31,007 bases of DNA from a virus (taxonomy: Duplodnaviria; Heunggongvirae; Uroviricota; Caudoviricetes): the IMG/VR virus record IMGVR_UViG_2917881069_000004, one strand, 5' to 3'. This document shows positions 490-25,341 of this stretch, in pieces (positions within the stretch are counted from its first letter, which is position 1; each line of letters starts with the position of its first letter). The position numbers and the translations under genes are program-made. The notes beneath the pieces were generated by a model that saw nothing but the letters and a program-made list of their open reading frames with translations, made no database searches and was not told where the DNA came from.

Positions 490-1387
490 TTAAGACACGC
501 GGGCATCGTACCCATACAAGTCTTGAAAGCATGAGTAAAACAATTCTTGATTGTTGAGTTCGCCCTTTGTTTCCGGTATTTCACTCTGTAGAAAATTTTT
601 ATTAATTGTCCACTCAATAGCTAAAGTATTAGTGTAGTTTGTTGAACTACTAATTTTAGCATTATTAGGATGAAAAAGTTGCTGTATAAATTCAATATCT
701 GAATCAAGTGAAATAAAATGTATGTTTGCATTATCTTTTAATCTATCATCAAATCTAAGTTGGATAGTGGTTTTGTAATGATTAAAATCAGCAATTGGGT
801 TATAAGATGAAAAATTTTTACTTTTAAATTTTAATATCTTCTCAGCTCGTTGGCTTCCAAAGATATACATCAGAGCTACAATTGTAAACGGTTGGTTTTT
901 AAATTCATTAAACTCGTTTACTATCTCTTTAAACTCATAATATGTATTCTCTCGTTGTTCTACTTTCTTTGTTTCCCCTATTTTTTCTTGTAGCTTATCA
1001 AGGAATTTTGTTTTTTTATCTATTAATCTGTCAGTTTCTTTTTCATATATTATTTTTGATAGTTTATTTACATTGGATGTTAGGAAATCATAATCAGTGT
1101 TAGCTTCTTTAATAAATGATTTTACAATTTCACTATCCTCTATAATTAATTTTCTTATTTTTTTATTAGGTGTTTTTATGATTTCTAATTTGCCGTTACT
1201 GTCAAGTTTTTTTATGGGTTTTTCCTTCTATTATTGATAGTAAAGGTGAGAAAGTATTTCCTTTGATATCTAATGCTTTTAATTTATTAAGCATATCAAT
1301 TCTATTAGGTTCTGGGATATTAGAAGAATTGTTGTGCTTATTCATTAGATCAATTATGTTTCGATCTAAAAGGTAGAGCTCTGTCAT
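490..1387 (-). CDS. AT-rich cargo ORF of unknown function, about 298 aa if joined; split by a 1-nt frame shift at a T7/A7 tract
   Basis: Track ORFs 1202..1387 (61 aa) and 490..870 are parts of one reading frame. By hand translation the frame of 490..870 stays open up to 1227, and removing one A from the A7 run (plus-strand T7 at 1207-1213) fuses the 61-aa ORF to it (..THKK-LDSNGKLEII..). Composition is strongly AT-rich compared with the phage backbone. The N-terminus LYLLDRNIIDL resembles the first strand of PIN-like nuclease folds (weak, by eye). Confidence 0.5.
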
Positions 1388-2427: not shown

Positions 2428-3066
2428 TTAGATGCTCTTAATCACTTTTACCACACGCCCTACAACGGCTACGTCATCAACTGCACATTCAAAGGTTGTT
2501 TCTTCCTGATGAACAACAAGCTTATTTCCGGGAATTCGAGCTACTTTTACGATGCTTTTCACTCCATCAATATCAACAAGCCAAGAGCCATTACTGATCT
2601 GTTTTACAGATACATCAACAATAAAACTTTCTGTTGTCGTTTGTATGAATAGATAGTTTGACGAATCGCCCTCAACCAACCTGCTATCTAATAAAATTTC
2701 GTCATATGATTGAAGTTCACCATTTCTTAATTCTGTGTATTTGATACTGGGAGCTACGATTTTAGAAAGTGGTCTAATTGTGACGTCATTATCATTTTTG
2801 AGAATGTTTGAGTCACAGTTATCTGCATACATATCACCCTGTCCGGTTGCCAACCAAAGAAGCGAGATCCCGGTTTCTAGAGCACATTGAATTACCCACT
2901 CTGCTGGAAAGCTATCTCTTAAGTATCTGTTTGCCATGGTGCTTTTAGATACTTTTAAGTGTTCGCAGAGTTGTTGGCGTGAGCTGAAATTGTAGGCTTT
3001 TATCAGCCTGTTGATGGCATCACGACCCCCACTATCGTTTCCACCCTTGATTAGACTCATAATCAA
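2428..3066 (-). CDS. cI: Immunity repressor, 186-type CI family
   Basis: 212 aa. Position between int and the divergent early operon. N-terminal HTH-like region (CALETGISLLWLATGQG) and C-terminal motifs (WLVDIDG, FECAVDD, GRVVKVI) resemble phage 186 CI as recalled. AAGGGG sits 7 nt upstream of the ATG. Confidence 0.7.
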   Translation of the reverse strand: MIMSLIKGGNDSGGRDAINRLIKAYNFSSRQQLCEHLKVSKSTMANRYLRDSFPAEWVIQCALETGISLLWLATGQGDMYADNCDSNILKNDNDVTIRPLSKIVAPSIKYTELRNGELQSYDEILLDSRLVEGDSSNYLFIQTTTESFIVDVSVKQISNGSWLVDIDGVKSIVKVARIPGNKLVVHQEETTFECAVDDVAVVGRVVKVIKSI

Positions 3067-3071
3067 ACCCC

Positions 3072-3100
3072 TTGACGCATATAAAATGAGATCTTAATAT
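3072..3100 (+). promoter_or_regulatory. Candidate early rightward promoter (pR-like)
   Basis: TTGACG (3072-3077), 17-nt spacer, TAATAT (3095-3100), in the cI/apl divergent intergenic region. Confidence 0.45.
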
Positions 3101-3143
3101 CCATTCATGGTTTGAAAAGCAAAACCAAACCACATAAAACGAG

Positions 3144-3425
3144 ATGATACGATTACAAACTAAGAGATACTGCACTATGAGCAACGACATTTCAATTCGT
3201 GTACCAAAAGTGATGGCGACACCAGCTGAGTTCGCGGAATGGGAAGGCCGCTCTCGCGGTTCGGTATATCAAATGATTCATAATGGAAAACTCGCTAAAT
3301 TCTTGGAAAGAAAAGAAAAACCGAAAGACAGAGTATGTATACGTTACCTTGAGTACAAAAAGGAACAAGTCAGGAAAAACATGGGCCAATCCAATTTCAA
3401 CTTTAATGTCATCGTTGGTGACTAA
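3144..3425 (+). CDS. apl: Apl/Cox-like small excisionase and switch regulator
   Basis: First gene of the rightward operon facing cI; 82-93 aa depending on start (alternative ATG at 3177, MSNDIS..). Size and position match 186 Apl / P2 Cox. Family assignment is by synteny only. Confidence 0.55.
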   Translation: MIRLQTKRYCTMSNDISIRVPKVMATPAEFAEWEGRSRGSVYQMIHNGKLAKFLERKEKPKDRVCIRYLEYKKEQVRKNMGQSNFNFNVIVGD

Positions 3426-3457
3426 GTTCAATTATGAGAACTTTCTAAGGGGGCAGC

Positions 3458-6112: not shown

Positions 6113-8522
6113 GTCATGACGATATGAGCAACTCTAGCGGCTTTAACGAGGCCGCAGCAGCATTTTCATGGAACGGCCCGAAAAAGGCCATTAACCCTTA
6201 TCTGGACCCGGCGGAAGTTGCGCCGGTTTCTGCGCTTTCAAACCTGATCACTCTGTACGCTGCCGATAACGAGCAGGAACAACTGCGCCGCGAGGCACTG
6301 AGTGATCAGGTCTGGGAGCGTTATTTCTTTAATGAATCCCGTGATCCTGTCCAACGCGAAATGGAGCAGGATAAGCTCATTAGCCGGGCAAAGCTGGCGC
6401 ATGAGCAGCAGCGTTTTAATCCAGATATGGTCATTCTGGCGGACGTCAATGCCCAGCCTTCCCATATCAGCAAGCCGCTGATGCAACGTATTGAATACTT
6501 CAGCAGCCTGGGCAGGCCAAAGGCTTATTCCCGCTATTTGCGTGAGACGATTAAGCCATGTCTGGAACGACTGGAGCATGTACGCGACAGTCAGCTATCC
6601 ACTTCTTTTCGCTTTATGGCAAGCCATGAAGGGCTGGACGGCCTGCTGATCCTGCCTGAAATGAGTCAGGATCAGGTGAAACGCTTGTCTACCCTTGTCG
6701 CTGCGCATATGAGCATGTGCCTTGATGCAGCTTGTGGCGATTTGTATGTCACCGATGACGTTAAGCCAGAAGAAATCCGCAATACATGGGAAAAGGTGGC
6801 AGCGGAAACCCTGCGTCTGGATGTCATCCCGCCTGCGTTTGAGCAACTCCGCCGGAAAAGAAACCGCCGTAAACCCGTGCCCTATGAACTCATTCCGGGT
6901 TCGCTGGCGCGTATGTTGTGCGCTGACTGGTGGTACCGGAAATTATGGAAGATGCGTTGCGAATGGCGGGAAGAGCAGTTGCGTGCTGTCTGCCTGGTCA
7001 GCAAAAAAGCATCTCCCTATGTCAGCTATGAAGCCGTGATGCATAAACGTGAGCAGCGCCGTAAGTCGCTGGAGTTTTTTCGTTCTCATGAACTGGTGAA
7101 CGAAGACGGCGACACGCTGGACATGGAGGATGTGGTAAACGCCAGCAGCAGCAACTCTGCGCATCGCCGCAATGAGATGATGGCCTGTGTTAAAGGCCTG
7201 GAGCTTATCGCGGAAATGCGCGGTGACTGCGCCGTTTTCTACACCATCACCTGTCCGTCACGTTTCCATTCCACGCTAAATAACGGCAGGCCCAACCCGA
7301 CCTGGACAAATGCGACGGTAAGACAAAGCAGTGATTATCTGGTCGGCATGTTTGCTGCATTTCGTAAGGCGATGCACAAAGCCGGATTGCGCTGGTATGG
7401 CGTGCGGGTGGCTGAGCCGCATCATGACGGTACAGTTCACTGGCACCTGTTGTGTTTTATGCGCAAAAAAGATCGCCGCGCCATTACTGCTTTGTTGCGT
7501 AAGTTTGCCATTCGTGAAGACCGCGAGGAGCTGGGGAATAACACGGGACCACGCTTTAAGTCTGAGTTGATTAACCCGCGCAAAGGAACGCCGACAAGCT
7601 ACATCGCGAAATATATCAGCAAGAACATTGACGGGCGTGGTCTGGCTGGCGAGATCAGCAAGGAAACGGGTAAATCTCTGCGTGATAACGCTGAATACGT
7701 TAATGCCTGGGCGTCTCTGCATCGTGTTCAGCAATTCCGCTTCTTTGGTATTCCGGGGCGTCAGGCTTACCGTGAACTGCGATTGCTGGCTGGTCAGGCG
7801 GCAAGGCAACAGGGCGACAAAAAGCAGGTGCGCCGGTACTGGATAACCCGCGCCTTGATGCCATCCTGGCTGCTGCTGATGCTGGTTGTTTTGCCACTTA
7901 CATCATGAAGCAGGGTGGTGTACTGGTTCCCCGCAAATATCACCTCATCAGAACTGCTTATGAAATTAACGAAGAGCCGACCGCCTATGGCGATCACGGC
8001 ATTCGTATTTATGGCATCTGGTCACCCATTGCAGAGGGCAAGATCTGCACTCATGCAGTGAAGTGGAAAATGGTTCGTAAAGCCGTTGACGTTCAGGAGG
8101 CGGTAGCCGACCAGGGCGCTTGCGCCCCTTGGACTCGTGGCAATAACTGTCCCCTTGCTGAAAATTTGAACCAACATGAGAAAGATAAATCAGCAGACGG
8201 GGATACCAGAACGGACATTTCCTGCATGGATGACAAGGAATTGCACGATTACCTGCACAGTATGGGCAAAAAAGAGCACCGGGAACTGGCAGCAAGATTA
8301 CGCCTGGTTAAACCGAAACGGCGTAAAGACCACAAACAGCGAATTACAGACCATCAGCGTCAGCAGCTCGTCTATGAACTGAAGTCCAGAGGATTTGATG
8401 GCAGCGAGAAAGAAGTCGATTTACTGCTTCGTGGCGGCAGTATTCCGTCAGGAGCAGGCCTGCGTATCTTCTATCGGAACCAGCGTTTGCAGGAAGATGA
8501 TAAGTGGCGGGATCTGTATTAA
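6109..8522 (+). CDS. A: Rolling-circle replication initiator (P2 gpA-like); apparent 1-nt frame shift near 7810-7820
   Basis: HUH-type motif [10 protein letters not shown]. Track ORFs 6109..7908 and 7905..8522 are continuous in sense (..QGDKK / [32 protein letters not shown]..) if the A5 run is A6. Confidence 0.8.
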
Positions 8523-8615
8523 TTACGCGGGTTAACAATTCGTGCTCTTAATAATACCAGGCATATCAGGCTGATGAACGTAAAAAAAACGTTTTACATC
8601 AGTAAGATTATTATA

Positions 8616-8635
8616 TACTGTAAATATAAACAGTG
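8616..8635 (+). promoter_or_regulatory. LexA (SOS) box overlapping a candidate promoter
   Basis: TACTGTAAATATAAACAGTG fits CTGT-N8-ACAG and matches 17 of 20 positions of the consensus TACTGTATATATATACAGTA. A -35-like TTTACA lies at 8593-8598. The box is 42 nt upstream of the 8677 ATG. Confidence 0.7.
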
Positions 8636-8676
8636 GTTATATATACAGTGTTGCGTATGGTGTTATAGGAGGAAAG

Positions 8677-8865
8677 ATGCAGGACTATTTTTGGGAGTCT
8701 TTGAAGCTCCAGCGCATTGATTTTTTTCTTAAGCTTGTAGCGGCTAGTGAGTGTAGCGATGAAGAGAAGGGGCTGGCTCTGCAGTGGGTTTCTGAATTGA
8801 CTGATGAGTTGATGGCGAAAATTCGAAGCCATGAATACAGTAGGTCGATGGATGTAATCAGTTGA
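8677..8865 (+). CDS. Small protein (62 aa) under a LexA box; candidate SOS-induced antirepressor or moron
   Basis: Strong RBS (TAGGAGGAAAG then ATG). Occupies the position of 186 tum (between A and cos) in a phage with a 186-type CI. No sequence resemblance to DinI recognised. Confidence 0.55.
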   Translation: MQDYFWESLKLQRIDFFLKLVAASECSDEEKGLALQWVSELTDELMAKIRSHEYSRSMDVIS

Positions 8866-8898
8866 GCTTGTTTCGTTAGGACTTGATAAGGGAACCGA

Positions 8899-8919
8899 AA
8901 AGGGGCATTAAGCCCCTTT
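8899..8919. terminator. Bidirectional hairpin between convergent genes
   Basis: AAAGGGGC-attaa-GCCCCTTT, an 8-bp stem, between the stop of 8677..8865 (+) and the stop of 8933..9232 (-). Flanking U-tracts are short. Confidence 0.45.
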
Positions 8920-8932
8920 CTCATAAGTTGAT

Positions 8933-9232
8933 TTAGTTGTTCCCCAAAGAGCCGGCCATGGCTGCATATTTAATTTCTTCGCTGGGTATTTCAGGATGTA
9001 GTTGAATTTGCCTGATGACATAGCCAGGAACTTCGTCACTCCACAGTTTCGCCGCGTCCTTACAGACCTTATACGCGAAGTCTCTATTCTCAAAGGCATA
9101 GGATTTTCCGTATGCATATTGCTGACAGGCATGAACATAAGCTCCGAAGTCGCCGTCTTTATCTGGCAAAGCACATCCAGCCAAGGCTATGATGATTGCT
9201 ACTAACGTAAAGGAGAAAGTTATACGTTTCAT
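8933..9232 (-). CDS. Small lipoprotein (99 aa), unknown function
   Basis: Signal peptide with lipobox LAGC (MKRITFSFTLVAIIIALAGC..). Located in the A-Q variable island. Confidence 0.65.
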   Translation of the reverse strand: MKRITFSFTLVAIIIALAGCALPDKDGDFGAYVHACQQYAYGKSYAFENRDFAYKVCKDAAKLWSDEVPGYVIRQIQLHPEIPSEEIKYAAMAGSLGNN

Positions 9233-9340
9233 GGTCTCTTTCTAAGCGTTTAGCATTATTTAACTAAGGGGTATCTGCCGTGATTTGGTAGTCCCTGATA
9301 TATATTCTCAGGGACTATGCTGAAGTAGCTTTAATTTCGA

Positions 9341-10147
9341 TTATTTAGAAAGGTACTTATCTCTAAGTTGATTCAGTCTGTCAGCATCGCGTTCTGAAAA
9401 CTCGGCGTCACCATAGATCGATTTCCCATCTGCGTCTTCAAGGCCAATGACTGTGACGGTAAATATAGCATCAGCCGGAACTTTAAGTTTTCCCCAATCA
9501 GAGTATCTATTAGGGGCTAATTTCCAGTTGGCTTTCTCACCTGGTTCCAGACCTCCAGAAATTTTATAGTTGAAGACGTCAGAGAACCAAGGGACGCTTC
9601 TTCCTGGACTGGCAATAACTCCTTTGAAGAATACTCTGGCAACCGCTTTGTCTGTTCCGTTTTCAACGCTAATATCCAGAATTGGCTGATCATTGCCGTA
9701 ATCCTCTTTCTGGAAATAAAAACGGGAACGTTCGACCTTGAAGGCTTTCATTTTTTCCGCAGCCTGTGTTGCAGAGGTTTGTTTGGCTTCCAGTTCTTTT
9801 ATTTCTTGCAGAGCCTGTTCTTTCTCTCTCTTCTCACGCTCAAGGCGAATAGTTTGTGCGTAATTTATAACCTCATCACCAGTTTTACCTTCCAACGCTG
9901 ACTTAATTTTTGTTTCGTAGACGTCCCCAGAAGACGTTCCAGCCTGCATTAGCTCTCTCATGTTGATTTGGCTAAAGGCAACGACTTTAACTGCATCATC
10001 AAACTGAGCTTTTTTATCTGCAGGTAAGGACTCTCTTACTTTTTGAATGGACTCTTTCATCGACTGATCGCTTGATGCATCGATCTTCGGTTTGTCACAA
10101 GCAGTAAGCAGCAGAGCAAAAGCAATTACGCCAGTTAATTTCTTCAT
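9341..10147 (-). CDS. Lipoprotein (about 267 aa), unknown function
   Basis: Track ORF 9341..10219. The likely true start is the internal ATG at 10147 (MKKLTGVIAFALLLTAC, lipobox LLTAC), because the upstream extension is the translation of a hairpin plus T-run. Central Lys/Glu-rich predicted coiled region. Confidence 0.65.
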   Translation of the reverse strand: MKKLTGVIAFALLLTACDKPKIDASSDQSMKESIQKVRESLPADKKAQFDDAVKVVAFSQINMRELMQAGTSSGDVYETKIKSALEGKTGDEVINYAQTIRLEREKREKEQALQEIKELEAKQTSATQAAEKMKAFKVERSRFYFQKEDYGNDQPILDISVENGTDKAVARVFFKGVIASPGRSVPWFSDVFNYKISGGLEPGEKANWKLAPNRYSDWGKLKVPADAIFTVTVIGLEDADGKSIYGDAEFSERDADRLNQLRDKYLSK

Positions 10148-10161
10148 ATCCCTATCCCAAT

Positions 10162-10197
10162 CGTAAAAAAACAAGGCTAATCCTAACAGGATTAGCT
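10162..10197 (-). terminator. Terminator-like hairpin plus U-tract in the leader of the lipoprotein gene
   Basis: On the minus strand CTAATCCT-gtt-AGGATTAG (perfect 8-bp stem) is followed by CCTTGTTTTTTT, 15 nt upstream of the ATG at 10147. A candidate -35/-10 pair (TTTATA-17-TATGAG) lies just upstream. Confidence 0.5.
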
Positions 10198-10662
10198 GGC
10201 ATGACAAACTCATAGCCATATAGGTGTGCTGTATAAATTAGCGGGATGAGAAAGCCTGCGCAGCCCCTCATGTTGAAACTTGATTTTAGCTCAAAAGAGC
10301 TGACACTAAATAACTGCGCGGAATAATGCTCCACTTTCGGTTAGCCCTTGCTGGGTAAGGCGTGGGGCCGTTTTCTTCGCCTGATCCTGCTGTATCTGGC
10401 CTACAGTATGTTGCCCTTACGCGACATGCCACATGTCAGTAAACGGCAGGTGTAGCAGTATTAGACGCAGCTATTTAGTGTGTATTAAGCTGGCTCATAT
10501 TTATGACTGGTTTCAAGGTTTGACCGATTTTCATGTCATGCATGTCTATGCTGCATGAGTTCGCATGATCGTTTGAGGATCGGTTTGGCTAAGACATGCC
10601 AGAACTGGCGGGCTTTTGCTCATGTCATGCAGGTGCATGAAAACCACTACATAAAGCGGGCA

Positions 10663-10681
10663 GGCGTGGCGGGGATACGAG
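10663..10681. other. cos site (cohesive-end region)
   Basis: GGCGTGGCGGGGATACGAG resembles the 19-nt cohesive ends of P2 (GGCGAGGCGGGGAAAGCAC) and 186 as recalled. Correct position between the variable island and portal gene Q. Confidence 0.6.
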
Positions 10682-10770
10682 CGCGCGCAACGGGGTAAAA
10701 TGGCCAAAATCCGGCACAGCCTCTGGCCCGCTGGCGGCCTCATTTAGTGGAGGGGGGGCGATGTCAGGGC

Positions 10771-10806
10771 AAAAAGAAACGCCCCGCAGAATGCTGCTGA
10801 GGCGTT
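10771..10806 (-). terminator. Possible terminator of the leftward P-Q late operon
   Basis: AACGCC / GGCGTT arms with an internal GCAG/CTGC mini-stem, followed on the minus strand by a T-run; about 40 nt downstream of the Q stop. Loop is long, so weak. Confidence 0.3.
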
Positions 10807-10841
10807 GTGAGAGTTGGTCGGTTATTGATGTTATGAGTATG

Positions 10842-11885
10842 TCAGCTTCGTTTGCCCTTAAGTCCTAAGTCATAGGCTTCAAAACGGATAACCTCTTCAT
10901 CCAGCCAGTCATTCAGCTCCTGCAGTCGCTTTTGCAGGGGCATCAGTTCATTGCGGACGAAGACACGGCTCGCTTTTTCCACATCCCCAAAGCCGCCAGT
11001 GTTGTTGGGAATGATGCCCATCATTTGCGGCGGTACGCGGTGAGCCGCCATCATGTCATCGCGGCTGACGTTCTTGATGTTCAGAAATTCATCCTTCGCC
11101 GCGACTTCCGACAACGGGATAATCTGAATGCCATCTTTTTTGCCGTTAGGCGAGTACATAAACAGGTTGCGGAAGTTGCCCGGTCCTTTAGCACTTTTCA
11201 TTGCCTTGCGGATGTTGTTCACATCCTCCTGGTTCTGTGCGGCGTCGGTCATGTACATGATGAAGCCTGCGTGGCTGCCGTTAATGTAATACTTGCGGCG
11301 GAACAGCGTGGCGGATTCGTTGAGCAGAGCTGACGGAATGGCAGAAAGGTAACCCGGCAGACCATAAATCTCCTGGTTGATATCCGGCTCCATCAGGTGG
11401 AAGACGTTACCTTTTGTGAACTGATACGGCTGTGTCGTCAGGCTGTATTGCACAAACCAGTATGTTTCAAGGTCAAGCCCGCGTCGGGTGTATTTTGCCA
11501 GTGCAGGCTCCAGCGAAATAACTTCACCAAAGCGGTTCGTGCGTTTCTCCAGGTAGGCGTTACCAAAAACCAGATAGTCCTGCACAAAACGGGTAAATGC
11601 CTGCTGGCTGAGAAGGCGATGTGGAATATAGGTACTGCTGATAATGTCACGCTTAACACTGATCGGGGAGCTGTGGTGCACGGCGGCGCGGAAGGTGCGC
11701 GCCAGTCCGTCAAAGCTGACGGGTGGCTCATACCAGCGATCCATCTGTACGCATTCCACATAGTCCAGCAGTTCGCGGCGGTCCAGTACAGGAATGGGAT
11801 CACCAAAGCTGAAAGCCTCCGCAACGGGTTTTTTAGTTTCTTCTGCAGTTACGGTTTCGCCTGGCGCGATATGTTCTTTCATCAA
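10842..11885 (-). CDS. Q: Portal protein (P2 gpQ-like)
   Basis: 347 aa (P2 Q is about 344 aa). Start overlaps the terminase stop. Position next to cos. Confidence 0.85.
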   Translation of the reverse strand: MMKEHIAPGETVTAEETKKPVAEAFSFGDPIPVLDRRELLDYVECVQMDRWYEPPVSFDGLARTFRAAVHHSSPISVKRDIISSTYIPHRLLSQQAFTRFVQDYLVFGNAYLEKRTNRFGEVISLEPALAKYTRRGLDLETYWFVQYSLTTQPYQFTKGNVFHLMEPDINQEIYGLPGYLSAIPSALLNESATLFRRKYYINGSHAGFIMYMTDAAQNQEDVNNIRKAMKSAKGPGNFRNLFMYSPNGKKDGIQIIPLSEVAAKDEFLNIKNVSRDDMMAAHRVPPQMMGIIPNNTGGFGDVEKASRVFVRNELMPLQKRLQELNDWLDEEVIRFEAYDLGLKGKRS

Positions 11886-22091: not shown

Positions 22092-23491
22092 GCACAAAAT
22101 TTTATACCCTGCTGACGGAGATTGGTGCGGCGAAACTTGCCAGCGCCGCCGCGCTCGGTGTGCCGCTTAAAATTACCCATATGGCGGTGGGGGATGGTAG
22201 TGGAGCATTGCCGACGCCGGACGCAAAGCAGACTGCACTGGTAAATGAGAAACGCCGGGCTGCGCTGAATATGCTCTATATCGACCCGCAAAACAGCAGT
22301 CAGATTATTGCTGAACAGGTGATCCCTGAAAACGAGGGCGGTTGGTGGATACGTGAAGTGGGACTTTTTGATGAGTCAGGGGCATTGATTGCCGTGGGCA
22401 ACTGCCCGGAAAGCTACAAGCCGCAACTGGCTGAAGGCAGCGGGCGCACCCAGACTGTGCGCATGGTGCTGATTACCAGCAGCACGGAGAATATCATCCT
22501 GAAAATCGACCCTGCCGTCGTGCTGGCAACCCGCAAGTATGTGGATGATAAGGTACTGGAGCTGAAGGTGTACGTGGATGACCTGATGGCAAAACATCTT
22601 GCCGCACCGGACCCGCATTCACAGTACGCGCCAAAAGCCAGCCCGACGTTTACCGGAACCCCCAAAGCGCCAACTCCAGAGGCAGGGAATAACACCACGC
22701 AGGTTGCGACCACCGCGTTTGTTCAGGCGGCACTGCTCACCCTGATTGACGGTGCGCCAGCCACGCTGGACACGCTGAAAGAAATTGCAGCTGCTATTAA
22801 TAATGACCCGAAATTCAGTACCACCATTAACAATGCGCTGGCACTCAAAGCACCGCTGTCGAGTCCTGCACTCACCGGAACGCCAACAGCACCTACTGCG
22901 GCACAGTCGGTCAACAATACACAGATTGCCACCACGGCTTTTGTGAAATCGGCAATTGCGGCAATGGTGGGTTCTGCACCTGCGGCACTGGATACGCTGA
23001 ACGAACTGGCGGCGGCGCTGGGGAATGACCCGAACTTTGCCACGACAATGCTCAATTCGCTGGCGGGAAAACAACCGCTGGATAATACGCTGACTAATTT
23101 GAGTGGAAAGGATGTTGCTGGTCTTCTCGCATACCTTGGTTTGGGAGAAGCGGCAAAACGGGATGTGGGAACGGGGGTAAATCAGATACCGGATATGAGC
23201 TTTCAGGGTTATGGGCCTAATTGGGTCAAAACTGTAGGTGGAATGATTATTCAAAAGGGATCGCTGGGATTTAGTATTGGTTCAAATCTATCAAGCACTA
23301 CATTTCCGATCGCGTTTGCTTCAGGGGCAGTAGTCAATCTAACGTGGTCTGACGTCACGTCAGGTGGCGCAGCTCCGGGGACTACAATGTCTTATGGAAT
23401 AGTCGTGGGGTCACAAACCAGGACAGGTTTTCAGGCCTGGATGAGTGGTGCCGGTGGATTCAACCTCTCATATATAGCTGTGGGGTATTGA
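22088..23491 (+). CDS. H: Tail fibre protein (P2 gpH-like)
   Basis: 467 aa. N-terminus MSTKFYTLLTEIGAAKLASAAALG is typical of P2-family fibres; internal tandem motifs (PTFTGTPKAPT..TTAFVQAAL / PALTGTPTAPT..TTAFVKSAI). Confidence 0.85.
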   Translation: MSTKFYTLLTEIGAAKLASAAALGVPLKITHMAVGDGSGALPTPDAKQTALVNEKRRAALNMLYIDPQNSSQIIAEQVIPENEGGWWIREVGLFDESGALIAVGNCPESYKPQLAEGSGRTQTVRMVLITSSTENIILKIDPAVVLATRKYVDDKVLELKVYVDDLMAKHLAAPDPHSQYAPKASPTFTGTPKAPTPEAGNNTTQVATTAFVQAALLTLIDGAPATLDTLKEIAAAINNDPKFSTTINNALALKAPLSSPALTGTPTAPTAAQSVNNTQIATTAFVKSAIAAMVGSAPAALDTLNELAAALGNDPNFATTMLNSLAGKQPLDNTLTNLSGKDVAGLLAYLGLGEAAKRDVGTGVNQIPDMSFQGYGPNWVKTVGGMIIQKGSLGFSIGSNLSSTTFPIAFASGAVVNLTWSDVTSGGAAPGTTMSYGIVVGSQTRTGFQAWMSGAGGFNLSYIAVGY

Positions 23492-23919
23492 TAATGAAAT
23501 ACAGATATTCTGGCGAGACAAATTCTTTTTATCCCTGGGCATTATTTGATGATTACACGCGAGTTAATGCATGGCCTGAAAATGGGGTGGATGTTGACGA
23601 AGATATTTTTACGGAATATAGCGGCACACCGCCAGAAGGCAAAACTCGCGGCCCGGATGTTAATGGGAAACCATCATGGATAGATGCACAGCCACCATCT
23701 AAAAAAGAACAAATTATCGCTGCGGACTTTCAGAAATCAGCATTACTGGCGGAGGCAACGGCGATTATCGCCCCACTGGCAGATGCTCAGGCAGGAGGCT
23801 ACATCGACGATGTTGACGTGCCACGTCTGGCTGAATGGCAGCGGTACCGCTACAAACTGACTAAAGTCGATACCAGTACCGCGCCTGACATTACCTTTCC
23901 ACCGAAGCCGGAGGTGTAG
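23488..23919 (+). CDS. G: Tail fibre assembly chaperone (P2 gpG-like)
   Basis: 143 aa with C-terminus ..YRYKLTKVDTSTAPDITFPPKPEV, typical of Tfa chaperones. Confidence 0.8.
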   Translation: MIMKYRYSGETNSFYPWALFDDYTRVNAWPENGVDVDEDIFTEYSGTPPEGKTRGPDVNGKPSWIDAQPPSKKEQIIAADFQKSALLAEATAIIAPLADAQAGGYIDDVDVPRLAEWQRYRYKLTKVDTSTAPDITFPPKPEV

Positions 23920-24028
23920 GCCATTTGATATCTGGTGCGATGGTCGTATCTACCACCTCAAGCGCATCCAGATAATCTGGCCATGTATAGAAAATTTCCG
24001 GCAAATAAGAGCAATGAATCGCCCTGAA
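23894..24028 (-). pseudogene. Remnant of an inverted second tail-fibre-assembly gene (C-terminal 45 codons, no start codon)
   Basis: Minus-strand open frame reads ..LPEIFYTWPDYLDALEVVDTTIAPDIKWPTPPASVER, parallel to the C-terminus of G (VDTSTAPDITFP). It converges tail-to-tail on G and overlaps its last codons. Confidence 0.5.
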
Positions 24029-24075
24029 TCAGCATTATTTTGATTTTTTCTGTGAGCGGACAAATACCGTCATTT

Positions 24076-24169: not shown

Positions 24170-25341
24170 ATGGCTCAGGATTACCACCACGGGGTGCGCG
24201 TTGTTGAAGTCAACGAAGGCACCCGATCCATTACCACGGTGAGCACCGCCATCGTGGGTATGGTCTGCACGGGCGATGATGCCGATGCAAAAATGTTTCC
24301 TCTTAATAAACCCGTGCTGATCACTGATGTACTGACCGCCAGCGGTAAAGCGGGTGAGTCCGGCACGCTGGCCCGTTCGCTGGATGCCATCGCTGACCAG
24401 GCAAAACCCGTGACCGTTGTTGTGCGTGTGCCGCAGGGTGAAACGGAAGAAGAAACCACGACCAATATCATCGGCGCAGTGACTGCTGAAGGTAAAAAAA
24501 CAGGCATGAAAGCCCTGTTATCTGCCCAGACACAGCTCGGCGTTAAACCGCGCATTCTCGGCGTGCCAGGTCACGATAACAAAGCCGTTGCTACTGAGTT
24601 GCTGAGTGTGGCGCAAAGCTGCGTGGGTTTGCCTACCTGTCAGCGTATGGCTGCAAGACGGTACAGGAGGCGATCACTTACCGTGAAAACTTCAGCCAGC
24701 GCGAAGGAATGCTGATCTGGCCTGACTTTACTGGCTGGGACACGGTGCTGAATGCCGAAGCAATGGCATATGCCACCGCTCGTGCGCTTGGTCTGCGTGC
24801 CAAAATTGATGAGCAGACCGGGTGGCACAAAAGCCTGTCCAACGTGGGCGTGAACGGTGTCACCGGAATTTCTGCAGATGTGTTCTGGGATCTGCAGGAC
24901 CCGGCAACCGATGCAGGTCTGCTGAACCAGAACGACGTCACCACGCTTGTGCGTAAAGACGGGTTCCGCTTCTGGGGTTCCCGCTGTCTGAGCGATGATC
25001 CGCTCTTTGCCTTCGAAAACTACACCCGCACGGCGCAGGTGCTGACGGACACAATGGCAGAAGCGCATATGTGGGCGGTGGACAAACCGCTGAACCCGTC
25101 GCTGGCCCGCGACATTATCGAAGGTATCCGCGCCAAAATGCGCAGCCTGGTCAGTCAGGGCTATCTCATTGGTGGTGATTGCTGGCTGGACGAGTCGGTG
25201 AATGACAAAGACACGCTGAAAGCCGGAAAACTCACCATCGATTACGACTACACGCCAGTACCGCCACTTGAAAACCTGATGCTGCGTCAGCGCATCACCG
25301 ATCAGTACCTGGTGAATTTCTCCAGCCAGGTAAGCGCGTAA
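24170..25341 (+). CDS. FI: Tail sheath protein (P2 gpFI-like); apparent 1-nt frame shift near 24616-24620
   Basis: Track ORFs 24170..24715 and 24709..25341 sum to about 390 aa (P2 FI is about 396 aa). The frame is restored if caaag is caaaag (..[41 protein letters not shown]..). Confidence 0.8.

What the first reader, a model, noticed from the sequence alone, without database searches (positions are those of the whole stretch)
8523..10840. Variable island between A and cos (the tin/old position of P2) carries an unfamiliar gene set
In P2-family phages the interval between the replication gene and cos/portal is a known hotspot for anti-phage cargo (tin and old in P2 itself). Here it holds a 62-aa ORF behind a LexA box and two co-directional lipoprotein genes (99 aa and about 267 aa). 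It also has its own regulatory structures: a bidirectional hairpin, a 10-bp inverted repeat and a leader hairpin. I do not recognise either lipoprotein as a known family. Phage-encoded lipoproteins in accessory slots are often receptor-masking superinfection-exclusion factors (T5 Llp and phi80 Cor are the precedents), so this is a candidate exclusion or defence module.
Basis: partly seen in the sequence, partly recalled or inferred. Interest (0 to 1): 0.7.

Follow-up and report, generated by a model that had tools for sequence, protein, structure and literature searches.

The report
Mobile lipoprotein pair beside prophage tum gene
The stretch between the replication gene and the packaging site of this P2-family prophage holds the phage's known SOS-triggered induction gene (tum) and a self-contained, mobile pair of envelope lipoprotein genes of untested function, which makes a reasonable but unproven candidate for blocking infection by other phages.

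Summary
The interpretation needs splitting.

- **The 62-aa ORF is not cargo.** It sits behind the LexA box and is the tum antirepressor of the Fels-2/DuoHS lineage. It is 97% identical to the E. coli HS gene whose deletion abolishes mitomycin-induced lysis.
- **The two lipoprotein genes are true cargo.** In E. coli, 1282 of 5426 complete genomes match parts of this interval, mostly the tum and cos flanks. Only 20 carry the lipoprotein pair. The sampled remainder mostly carry a dinI-like gene plus other variable genes.
- **The pair is a discrete cassette.** It runs promoter, DUF6694 lipoprotein (267 aa), hairpin, 99-aa lipoprotein, terminator. The same cassette, collinear at 74% nucleotide identity, sits in unrelated SSU5-like phage-plasmids. 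Both genes are under strong purifying selection (dN/dS 0.06-0.08).
- **DUF6694 is a recurrent phage add-on gene.** It also appears alone inside the tail modules of many lambda-like phages, on small plasmids and as single chromosomal genes.
- **The 99-aa protein is a very narrow enterobacterial family.** It almost always follows another lipoprotein gene.
- **No similarity to known exclusion or defence proteins.** Neither protein matches T5 Llp, phi80 Cor, P2 Tin or Old, or any PADLOC model.

Superinfection exclusion at the envelope is the best guess (about 40%) but is untested. The hotspot is already published, and this arrangement is listed there as "hypothetical". Interest is moderate.

The parts
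8593..8635 (+). SOS-controlled promoter region of tum. It has a -35-like TTTACA (8593-8598), a -10-like TATACT/TACTGT (8614-8621) and the LexA box TACTGTAAATATAAACAGTG (8616-8635).
   Evidence: The LexA box is the only match in the window, with 0 expected by chance. The region is invariant across the window, E. coli HS, Fels-2 and PE144. The geometry matches the annotated p95/LexA site of phage 186. The hexamers are my reading; the simple promoter scan did not flag them.
8677..8865 (+). tum, the 62-aa SOS-inducible antirepressor of the Fels-2/DuoHS lineage. It is a core regulatory gene, not cargo.
   Evidence: 97% identical to ECHS_RS04495, the gene deleted as 'tum' in PMC12055606, which abolished mitomycin-induced lysis. 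94% identical to Fels-2 STM2728. Matches phrog_698. dN/dS against Fels-2 is 0.07.
8897..8921 (.). Bidirectional terminator hairpin between the convergent tum and 99-aa lipoprotein genes. It is the 3' end of the lipoprotein cassette.
   Evidence: Folds at -14.2 kcal/mol on the plus strand and -15.1 on the minus strand. Conserved at the same place after the 99-aa gene in the SSU5-like cassette.
8933..9232 (-). 99-aa lipoprotein ('lip99'). Lipobox LAGC with Ala at +2, so predicted to be sorted to the outer membrane. The mature protein is about 79 aa, predicted helical, with two further invariant Cys.
   Evidence: ORF. Full-length match to phrog_7666. Alignment with invariant C20, C36 and C57. Only 15 clusters in 5.8 billion proteins and 3 real clusters among 1.84 billion representatives. 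dN/dS 0.08. The structure model is poor, pLDDT 58.
9289..9317 (.). 10-bp perfect inverted repeat in the 108-nt spacer between the two lipoprotein genes. It could be an intra-operon hairpin, a partial terminator or an operator.
   Evidence: -16.1 kcal/mol, z = -5.2. A stem at the same position (GTCCC...GGGAC) is kept in the 74%-identical cassette although the loop differs. No T run follows it on either strand.
9341..10144 (-). 267-aa DUF6694 family lipoprotein. Lipobox LTAC with Asp at +2. The predicted structure is a helical bundle, a 44-residue helix, a beta-sandwich and a C-terminal helix.
   Evidence: PF20404, E = 3.5e-22. phrog_7468, E = 3e-160. 327 homologous clusters. AlphaFold2 model pLDDT 85.5. 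+2 residues. dN/dS 0.06.
10176..10207 (-). Promoter-like site of the cassette (TTGTCA, 16 nt, TG-n-TAGGAT). It overlaps a 9-bp hairpin (10176-10196) that is followed by a T run.
   Evidence: 9 of 12 hexamer positions match, with TG before the second hexamer. Hairpin. The hexamers are kept in the SSU5-like cassette (TTGTCC ... TGTTAGGAT), but the 5' arm of the hairpin is not.
10208..10534 (.). Spacer specific to this island variant. It has no convincing ORF or known RNA, and its origin is unknown.
   Evidence: Only short ORFs. No Rfam match. Shared with the E. coli and Salmonella carriers of the island but not with DuoHS, whose homology resumes at 10540.
10535..10690 (.). Conserved cos-proximal segment. 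The 19-nt cohesive-end sequence is at 10664-10682.
   Evidence: Conserved in most of the E. coli genomes that match the interval and in Fels-2 and Klebsiella phages. Direct comparison with the annotated cos of phage 186.
10778..10806 (-). Terminator of the portal/terminase (Q-P) late operon. That operon reads in the same direction as the lipoprotein cassette.
   Evidence: -17.0 kcal/mol, z = -4.4, followed by UUUCUUUUU. Same position as terminator tW of phage 186.

Best explanation
The interval has three layers.

**1. tum (8593-8865).** This is the LexA-repressed antirepressor that switches this 186/Fels-2-type prophage to lytic growth after DNA damage. It belongs to the phage's core circuitry.

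**2. The lipoprotein cassette (8898-10188, minus strand).** Just past the tum stop codon, the usual dinI-like gene and variable genes have been replaced by about 1.7 kb of foreign, lower-G+C DNA. Its core is an autonomous two-gene cassette: own promoter, DUF6694 lipoprotein, hairpin, 99-aa lipoprotein, terminator. The cassette is a moron, meaning an add-on gene unit expressed independently of the phage programme, probably in the lysogen. Both products are exported and lipid-anchored facing the periplasm.
- The DUF6694 protein carries Asp at +2, the enterobacterial inner-membrane retention signal. Its long helix carries a beta-sandwich domain.
- The 99-aa protein carries Ala at +2, so it should go to the outer membrane.

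**3. cos (10664-10682).**

**Most likely function (inference, not shown).** The cassette changes the lysogen's envelope so that incoming phages are excluded, either at a receptor or at genome transfer across the periplasm and inner membrane.

**Shown:** gene identities, the tum assignment, the accessory status of the pair, the cassette structure and its mobility, purifying selection, and lipoprotein signals.

**Inferred:** membrane sorting, expression in the lysogen, and any anti-phage effect.

My confidence is about 0.9 for the tum assignment, about 0.85 for the mobile cassette and about 0.4 for exclusion. The overall figure reflects the last of these.
For: **tum**
- 97% identical to E. coli HS ECHS_RS04495 and 94% to Fels-2 STM2728, in the same position after A, with an invariant LexA box.
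- Deleting that HS gene blocks mitomycin-induced lysis (PMC12055606).
- In Fels-2 and PSP3 tum is split into an antirepressor half and a dinI-like half (PMC3121763).

**Accessory status**
- Only 20 of the 1282 E. coli genomes that match this interval hold the pair.
- The sampled others mostly hold dinI plus variable genes.

**Cassette**
- Window 10188-8898 is collinear at 74% nucleotide identity with an Enterobacter SSU5-like phage-plasmid. Gene order, the 108-111-nt spacer, the spacer hairpin, the terminator and the promoter hexamers are the same.
- The two genes have diverged in parallel: dN 0.13 and 0.16, dS about 2, dN/dS 0.06 and 0.08.
- The same island occurs in Salmonella and Citrobacter.

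**Moron behaviour of DUF6694**
- It occurs in 55 viral contigs. About 30 of the 41 that lack the 99-aa gene place it beside lambda-like tail genes, for example between the tape measure and the gpM-like gene.
- A 99%-identical copy sits on small plasmids next to IS elements.
- Single-gene chromosomal copies sit in unrelated neighbourhoods.

**The 99-aa gene**
- All 32 viral contigs that hold it are temperate-phage backbones, and in 31 of them it follows another lipoprotein gene.

**Precedents for exclusion genes in this slot**
- old and tin in P2 (PMC9122126).
- orf97 of phage 186, annotated 'expression from plasmid blocks 186 infection'.
Against: - DUF6694 is about 50% identical across very distant bacteria (Enterobacterales, Methylophaga, Desulfobacula) and sits in non-phage chromosomal contexts. 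This fits a conserved envelope function better than an arms-race receptor mask.
- Morons in tail modules also include non-defence genes. Lambda lom and bor are examples (my background knowledge).
- Lys at +3 may weaken the Asp +2 retention signal (from memory, not checked).
- The 99-aa structure model is unreliable.
Confidence: 0.42

Rival explanations
1. The cassette is a lysogenic-conversion module that benefits the host envelope for reasons unrelated to phages. Possibilities are serum or complement resistance (as with lambda Bor and plasmid TraT), stress tolerance, adhesion or envelope homeostasis.
Against: The 99-aa partner was found only on temperate-phage backbones: all 32 viral contigs, a lambdoid prophage end in Salmonella and the same Fels-2-like island in Citrobacter, the only match among 185,579 species genomes. 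The slot is enriched for anti-phage genes (PMC9122126). No similarity to Bor or TraT was detected in the Pfam, NCBIfam or PHROG scans.
Confidence: 0.3
2. The two lipoproteins are periplasmic immunity or inhibitor proteins against envelope-targeting toxins, such as type VI secretion peptidoglycan hydrolases, colicins, lysozymes or phage tail lysozymes.
For: They are small, disulfide-containing, periplasm-facing lipoproteins carried on mobile elements. The 99-aa gene is always paired with a second, swappable lipoprotein gene. There is no enzymatic motif and no Pfam hit for the C-terminal domain.
Against: No toxin or effector gene lies next to any copy inspected. There is no similarity to the known lysozyme-inhibitor or immunity families in Pfam or NCBIfam.
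Confidence: 0.1
3. All three ORFs form one unfamiliar anti-phage module, with the 62-aa ORF as its SOS-controlled component and the lipoproteins as Llp/Cor-type masks of an outer-membrane receptor.
For: The LexA box and all three ORFs are real and adjacent. The 99-aa protein has the size and predicted outer-membrane sorting of Llp and Cor.
Against: The 62-aa ORF is tum. It is present with the same promoter in relatives that lack the lipoproteins. It is convergent with them and separated from them by a terminator. The cassette moves without it. There is no sequence relationship to Llp or Cor.
Confidence: 0.07
4. The genes are decaying or functionless hitchhikers in a recombination hotspot.
For: The window carries several frameshifts in essential phage genes, so the prophage may be defective.
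Against: Both ORFs are intact. They are under strong purifying selection (dN/dS 0.06-0.08 at dS about 2). They are conserved as a pair in two unrelated phage backbones and in three host genera.
Confidence: 0.03

Closest known systems
tum of the P2-like prophage DuoHS (E. coli HS, ECHS_RS04495) and Fels-2 STM2728; functional analogue of 186 Tum and PSP3 TumA
   Same: It sits directly after gene A, has an identical LexA box and promoter region, and is 62 aa long with 94-97% identity.
   Different: It has no detectable similarity to 186 Tum or PSP3 TumA. The dinI-like partner gene that normally follows it is missing here. The CI repressor of this window is only 38% identical to that of DuoHS.
The gpA-gpQ (cos-proximal) variable hotspot of P2-like phages (Rousset et al. 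2022, PMC9122126), including P2 tin/old and 186 orf97
   Same: Same genomic slot. [quoted passage not shown]
   Different: The main text of that paper has no occurrence of 'lipoprotein', and none of the systems it describes as validated is this one. There is no similarity to Tin, Old or the other validated systems. The second sub-slot, between cos and Q, holds AIPR, HIRAN or DUF262 genes in relatives but is empty here.
Phage lipoproteins that exclude superinfecting phages: T5 Llp, phi80/N15/HK022 Cor, Streptococcus phage TP-J34 Ltp
   Same: Signal-peptidase-II lipoproteins encoded as add-on genes by (mostly temperate) phages. DUF6694 often lies in tail modules, as cor does. The 99-aa protein is small, has a predicted disulfide and is predicted to reach the outer membrane, like Llp. 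The comparator properties are from my background knowledge.
   Different: There is no sequence or fold relationship. DUF6694 is much larger (267 aa), probably inner-membrane anchored, and also occurs in non-phage chromosomal sites.
Pfam DUF6694 (PF20404) / PHROG 7468, and PHROG 7666
   Same: Full-length, high-scoring matches.
   Different: These families carry no functional annotation. The full-text library holds no paper that mentions DUF6694 or these accessions.
Salmonella SadB and C. difficile exported protein 5TTA (structural neighbours)
   Different: The scores are low (TM about 0.3, 9-14% identity). 5TTA is uncharacterised. No autotransporter partner gene lies nearby.

Membership tests
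tum antirepressor of the Fels-2/DuoHS lineage | Close sequence identity to the gene shown genetically to be required for SOS induction | tested here: met
   97% identical over 62 of 62 aa to ECHS_RS04495. That locus tag is the deleted 'tum' of PMC12055606.
tum antirepressor of the Fels-2/DuoHS lineage | First gene after replication gene A, behind a promoter that overlaps a LexA box | tested here: met
   Same layout as p95/LexA/tum of phage 186.
tum antirepressor of the Fels-2/DuoHS lineage | Followed by a dinI-like gene (the split-tum arrangement) | tested here: not met
   Homology to HS and Fels-2 ends at the tum stop codon, and no dinI-like ORF lies in 8866-10663. This is a feature of the operon, not of the protein.
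tum antirepressor of the Fels-2/DuoHS lineage | Binds and inactivates the cognate CI repressor | not testable with these tools
   The CI here is only 38% identical to DuoHS CI overall, although the N-terminal helix-turn-helix domain is similar.
186 Tum / PSP3 TumA (sequence family) | Sequence similarity to the N-terminal half of 186 Tum or to PSP3 TumA | tested here: not met
   BLASTP found no alignment at E <= 100.
Pfam DUF6694 (PF20404) lipoprotein | HMM score above the gathering threshold | tested here: met
   79.2 bits against a cut-off of 24.3, E = 3.5e-22, profile positions 5-101 of 102.
Pfam DUF6694 (PF20404) lipoprotein | N-terminal signal peptide with a lipobox cysteine | tested here: met
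   LLLTAC in the window. 43 of 46 aligned homologues have a recognisable lipobox.
PHROG 7666 (99-aa lipoprotein) | Full-length HMM match and a lipobox | tested here: met
   E = 1.7e-65 over positions 1-99 of 99. The lipobox Cys (C20) is invariant in all 15 aligned homologues, and the preceding residue is Gly in at least 90% of them.
T5 Llp / phi80 Cor receptor-masking lipoproteins | Sequence or profile similarity to Llp or Cor | tested here: not met
   The PHROG scan at E <= 0.1 returned only unknown-function families. tblastn against all phage records returned no T5-, phi80-, N15- or HK022-like record.
T5 Llp / phi80 Cor receptor-masking lipoproteins | Small outer-membrane lipoprotein | tested here: inconclusive
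   The 99-aa protein is about 79 aa when mature with Ala at +2, which is consistent by the sorting rule only. DUF6694 is 251 aa when mature with Asp at +2, which is not consistent.
T5 Llp / phi80 Cor receptor-masking lipoproteins | Blocks adsorption or DNA entry through FhuA or another receptor | not testable with these tools
   Needs adsorption and plating assays.
Known anti-phage defence systems (PADLOC 2.0, including Old, Tin, AbiE and others) | HMM match to any defence-system protein | tested here: not met
   No hit for any of the three proteins at E <= 0.1.
Two-component spanin (Rz/Rz1, LysB/LysC) | Gene pair in the lysis cassette, with an inner-membrane component that has an N-terminal transmembrane helix and an embedded or overlapping small outer-membrane lipoprotein | tested here: not met
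   The pair lies outside the lysis module, the genes are 108 nt apart and both carry lipoboxes. Relatives carry separate lysB/lysC genes. Each gene also occurs without the other.

The most novel reading that the evidence does not exclude
DUF6694 is a previously unrecognised, widespread family of phage-borne superinfection-exclusion lipoproteins. It is anchored to the inner membrane and blocks genome delivery across the periplasm. In this cassette it works with the small outer-membrane lipoprotein lip99 as a two-membrane exclusion device that temperate phages of unrelated types (P2-like, SSU5-like phage-plasmids, lambda-like) exchange as a unit.
Probability: 0.22. Interest if true: 0.62.

Novelty: new member of a known kind. 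Interest (0 to 1): 0.4.

Why it matters
**If the cassette excludes phages**
- It would add a new envelope-level mechanism to the P2 hotspot repertoire, which is otherwise dominated by cytoplasmic, nucleic-acid-directed systems.
- It would give a function to a Pfam DUF that recurs in the tail modules of many temperate phages.
- DUF6694 is conserved from enterics to marine bacteria, so its target would have to be a conserved step of infection or a conserved envelope component.

**If it does not exclude phages**
- It is still a clean example of a two-gene add-on unit moving between unrelated phage backbones and plasmids.

**Practical point**
- The finding warns against counting tum as cargo when surveying this hotspot.

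Tried and rejected
**Family and defence-model scans**
- NCBIfam gave only sub-threshold noise.
- PADLOC gave nothing.
- Pfam on the isolated C-terminal domain of DUF6694 and on mature lip99 gave nothing even at E <= 10.

**Structure-based searches**
- Profile searches against PDB sequences gave only a coiled-coil artefact (YaxA, E = 2.4) for DUF6694 and nothing for lip99.
- The afdb50 library was unavailable.
- The lip99 model was too poor (pLDDT 58) to search.

**Remote homologues of lip99**
- The exhaustive profile search added only two hits. Both are long proteins made of tandem repeats, and I treated them as spurious.

**RNA elements**
- Rfam and tRNA scans of the island and the whole window found nothing.

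**Literature**
- There are no papers on DUF6694 or the protein accessions.
- Bunny et al. 2002 on Fels-2 tum is not held.
- A search to confirm how the +3 residue affects lipoprotein sorting found nothing relevant, so that point rests on memory.

**Ideas considered and dropped**
- A spanin-like pair. This was dropped because of location, spacing and independent occurrence.
- A virion structural role for DUF6694 in lambda-like tail modules. This was dropped because of the lipoprotein signal and the plasmid and chromosomal copies.
- Treating the 139-aa and 168-aa genes upstream of lip99 in other elements as DUF6694 relatives. For the 139-aa Klebsiella gene there is no similarity. The 168-aa Salmonella protein was not compared directly and has no lipobox.


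Full report
**Context**

The window is a P2-family prophage of the 186/Fels-2 type.
- It encodes an integrase and a CI repressor of the 186 kind (PF07022/PF16452), plus CII, DUF5347, Dam methylase and the replication protein A (PF05840).
- On the other side of the finding lie the portal gene Q (10842-11885, minus strand) and the terminase gene.
- The interval 8501-10500 has G+C of 0.41-0.44, against 0.50-0.60 in the flanking phage genes.

- The LexA box TACTGTAAATATAAACAGTG (8616-8635) is the only match in the window, with none expected by chance.
- The 62-aa ORF (8677-8865, plus strand), the 99-aa ORF (8933-9232, minus strand) and the 267-aa ORF (9341-10144, minus strand, counted from MKKL) are all present. 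Both minus-strand ORFs have lipoboxes: LAGC and LTAC.
- The hairpin between the convergent genes, the perfect 10-bp inverted repeat (9289-9317) and the hairpin at 10176-10196 are real and fold better than shuffled controls.
- The cos site is at 10664-10682. The window reads cataaagCgggca|GGCGTGGCGGGGATACGAG. Phage 186 reads cataaagTgggca|GGCGTGGCGGGGAAAGCAT at its annotated cohesive end.
- The stated end (10840) therefore includes the 160 bases between cos and Q. These hold only the Q-operon terminator.

**The 62-aa ORF is tum, not cargo**

- The same 62-aa gene follows A in Fels-2 (STM2728, 94% identity), in E. coli HS (ECHS_RS04495, 97%) and in Klebsiella P2-like phages.
- The promoter and LexA region is invariant among four compared phages.
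- ECHS_RS04495 is the gene deleted as 'tum' in PMC12055606. That deletion, like a non-cleavable lexA allele, abolished mitomycin-induced lysis of the DuoHS lysogen.
- PMC3121763 records that in Fels-2 and PSP3 the 186 tum gene is split into an upstream antirepressor gene and a downstream dinI homologue.
- The protein has no detectable similarity to 186 Tum or PSP3 TumA. It is therefore a lineage-specific analogue, defined by position, regulation and the HS genetics.
- In the window, homology to HS and Fels-2 ends exactly at the tum stop codon, and the dinI-like gene is absent.

**The lipoprotein genes are accessory**

- In 5426 complete E. coli genomes, 1282 match parts of this interval, mostly the tum and/or cos flanks. 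Only 20 carry the lipoprotein pair, at 98.4-99% identity.
- A spread sample of the others shows tum, a dinI-like gene, and zero to three variable genes.
- This is the gpA-gpQ hotspot described by Rousset et al. (PMC9122126), with 1,650 arrangements in 18,150 loci.
- Their Table S5A already lists this arrangement as 'hypothetical + hypothetical + hypothetical + AIPR'. The main text never uses the word 'lipoprotein', and none of the systems it describes as validated is this one.
- Relatives that carry the pair have further cargo between cos and Q: AIPR in E. coli PE144, HIRAN plus a 304-aa protein in Salmonella, and DUF262. That sub-slot is empty in the window.

**What the proteins are**

*The 267-aa protein*
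- It is a DUF6694 lipoprotein (PF20404, E = 3.5e-22; phrog_7468, E = 3e-160).
- It has 327 homologous clusters, about 50% identical from Enterobacterales to Methylophaga and Desulfobacula.
- The AlphaFold2 model (pLDDT 85.5) shows a helical bundle (26-84), a 44-residue helix (89-132), a beta-sandwich (135-236) and a terminal helix.
- Enterobacterial members have Asp at +2 (C-D-K/Q) and others have Ser. By the classical sorting rule (my background knowledge) this predicts inner-membrane retention in enterics. Lys at +3 may weaken the signal.

*The 99-aa protein*
- It matches phrog_7666 and belongs to a very narrow family: 15 clusters in 5.8 billion proteins, 3 real clusters among 1.84 billion representatives, and 1 of 185,579 species genomes.
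- It has Ala at +2, which predicts the outer membrane, and two further invariant cysteines.
- Its model is helical but unreliable.

Neither protein matches PADLOC, NCBIfam or PDB sequences. Neither retrieves Llp- or Cor-bearing phages.

**The pair is a mobile cassette**

- In IMG/VR, one 145-kb contig, and Enterobacter hormaechei phage-plasmids of about 110 kb, carry DUF6694 (76% identity) followed 108-111 nt later by lip99 (76% identity). These have an SSU5-like backbone (DNA polymerase III alpha, gp32, RecA).
- Window 10188-8898 (minus strand) aligns with that locus at 74% nucleotide identity in one piece. The alignment includes the inter-gene hairpin position, the terminator after lip99 and the promoter-like TTGTCx-N16-TGnTAGGAT. 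The 5' arm of the 'leader hairpin' is not kept.
- Both genes show dN/dS of 0.06-0.08 at near-saturated synonymous divergence, with similar dN (0.13 and 0.16). They have therefore diverged together under purifying selection.
- The same island occurs in Salmonella enterica and in a Citrobacter species.

**Each gene also travels alone**

- Of 55 viral contigs with DUF6694, 14 also carry lip99 (13 Fels-2-like and 1 SSU5-like). The other 41 lack it.
- About 30 of those 41 place DUF6694 next to lambda-like tail genes. Most are in PHB10-like phages, between the tape measure gene and the gpM-like gene. In Pseudomonas phage PseuP_222 it lies between K and I.
- A 99%-identical copy sits on small E. coli plasmids beside IS remnants.
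- Single-gene chromosomal copies lie in unrelated core neighbourhoods: after rplS in Pectobacterium, beside ychF in Lonsdalea, and between a 2-hydroxyacid dehydrogenase gene and a YdbH-like gene in Enterobacter.
- Of 32 viral contigs with lip99, 14 have DUF6694 upstream, 17 have an unrelated 139-aa lipoprotein 10-14 nt upstream (15 SSU5-like and 2 on other backbones), and 1 has no recognised partner.
- A Salmonella lambdoid prophage has lip99 after a non-lipoprotein gene.

**How it most likely works**

*Shown*
- tum is the SOS switch.
- The cassette is a foreign, self-contained, selected, two-gene unit that encodes exported lipoproteins.
- It is convergent with tum and separated from it by a terminator.
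- It is co-directional with the Q-P late operon, from which it is separated by a terminator and cos.

*Inferred*
- It is expressed from its own promoter in the lysogen, possibly with late read-through.
- DUF6694 is tethered to the inner membrane with its sandwich domain held out on a long helix, and lip99 is on the inner face of the outer membrane.
- Together or separately they alter the envelope so that incoming phages fail at the receptor or during genome transfer.

*Support for exclusion is contextual*
- The slot is known for exclusion genes: old and tin in P2, and 186 orf97, annotated as blocking 186 infection.
- DUF6694 recurs as an insert in tail modules.
- lip99 was found only on temperate-phage backbones.

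*Against exclusion*
- DUF6694 is broadly conserved and has non-phage copies, which fits a general envelope role.
- No homology to any known exclusion or defence protein was found.

I put exclusion at about 0.4, a non-phage envelope fitness role at about 0.3, immunity to periplasmic toxins at about 0.1, and the remainder on other or unknown roles.

**Novelty and verdict**

- The hotspot, tum, and the existence of both protein families (as unknowns) are already on record, and this arrangement is already listed in a published table.
- This analysis adds three things: the assignment of the 62-aa ORF, the recognition of the lipoprotein pair as a conserved cassette shared by P2-like phages and SSU5-like phage-plasmids, and the recurrent tail-module placement of DUF6694.
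- That makes it a new member of a known kind (hotspot or moron cargo) and a reasonable candidate for a bench test. It is not a surprise to a specialist.
- Interest: 0.4.

Noticed in passing
window 7823, 12283, 13330, 14357, 17094: The window has single-base deletions in short homopolymers or doubled bases relative to the 96-97% identical Salmonella prophage. They frameshift gene A (split at about 7905), the terminase gene (split into three ORFs) and the scaffold gene, and one more falls in a further late gene. This is either an error-prone assembly or a defective prophage. The island's three ORFs are intact.
   Followed up: partly
window 2428-3457: The immunity region is swapped relative to other carriers of the island. 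Homology to the Salmonella and E. coli relatives starts only at 3457. CI is 38% identical to DuoHS CI (the N-terminal helix-turn-helix domain is similar and the C-terminal domain divergent), while tum is 97% identical. Whether this Tum can inactivate this CI is an open question.
   Followed up: partly
window 8866 (junction after the tum stop codon): The dinI-like gene that follows tum in Fels-2, in DuoHS and in most sampled E. coli relatives is missing. The SOS transcript should now end at the terminator directly after tum. Any read-through would be antisense to the lipoprotein genes.
   Followed up: partly
window 10683-10841; L006 8178-9929; L017 7736-9387: A second cargo sub-slot lies between cos and the portal gene. 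It is empty in the window. It holds an AIPR-family gene in E. coli PE144, a HIRAN-domain gene plus a 304-aa gene in Salmonella, and a DUF262 gene in another listed genome.
   Followed up: partly
window 10208-10534: About 330 bases of island-specific DNA with no convincing ORF and no Rfam match. It carries a promoter-like site on the plus strand (10300-10327). Its origin and role are unknown.
   Followed up: no
window 490-1387: A very low-G+C segment (0.27-0.29) downstream of the integrase gene holds two small minus-strand ORFs (126 aa and 61 aa) with no family assignment. It may be further cargo at the prophage end, or host DNA.
   Followed up: no
L007 5736-6542; L008 5014-5820; hits H44 and H45: The DUF6694 gene alone, 99% identical in DNA, sits on 12.6-29-kb E. 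coli plasmids beside IS1, IS5 or DDE-transposase remnants. In two E. coli chromosomes an IS1 has inserted into the island.
   Followed up: partly
L005 3571-3990 and L096-L110: Klebsiella SSU5-like phage-plasmids carry an unrelated 139-aa lipoprotein (lipobox MVGC) 10-14 nt upstream of the lip99 homologue. This is the locus where the Enterobacter phage-plasmids carry DUF6694, so the upstream partner is swappable.
   Followed up: partly
L014 3605-4336 (phage 186 orf97): In phage 186 the gene after tum, in the same slot before cos, is annotated 'expression from plasmid blocks 186 infection'. This is a closer positional precedent for exclusion genes than P2 tin/old. Fels-2 STM2726 occupies the same place.
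   Followed up: no
window 22548-24055: The C-terminal part of the tail fibre gene and the tail fibre assembly gene have no homology to DuoHS, although the flanks are 95% identical. This is the usual host-range cassette exchange. The sheath gene at 24170 also looks truncated.
   Followed up: no
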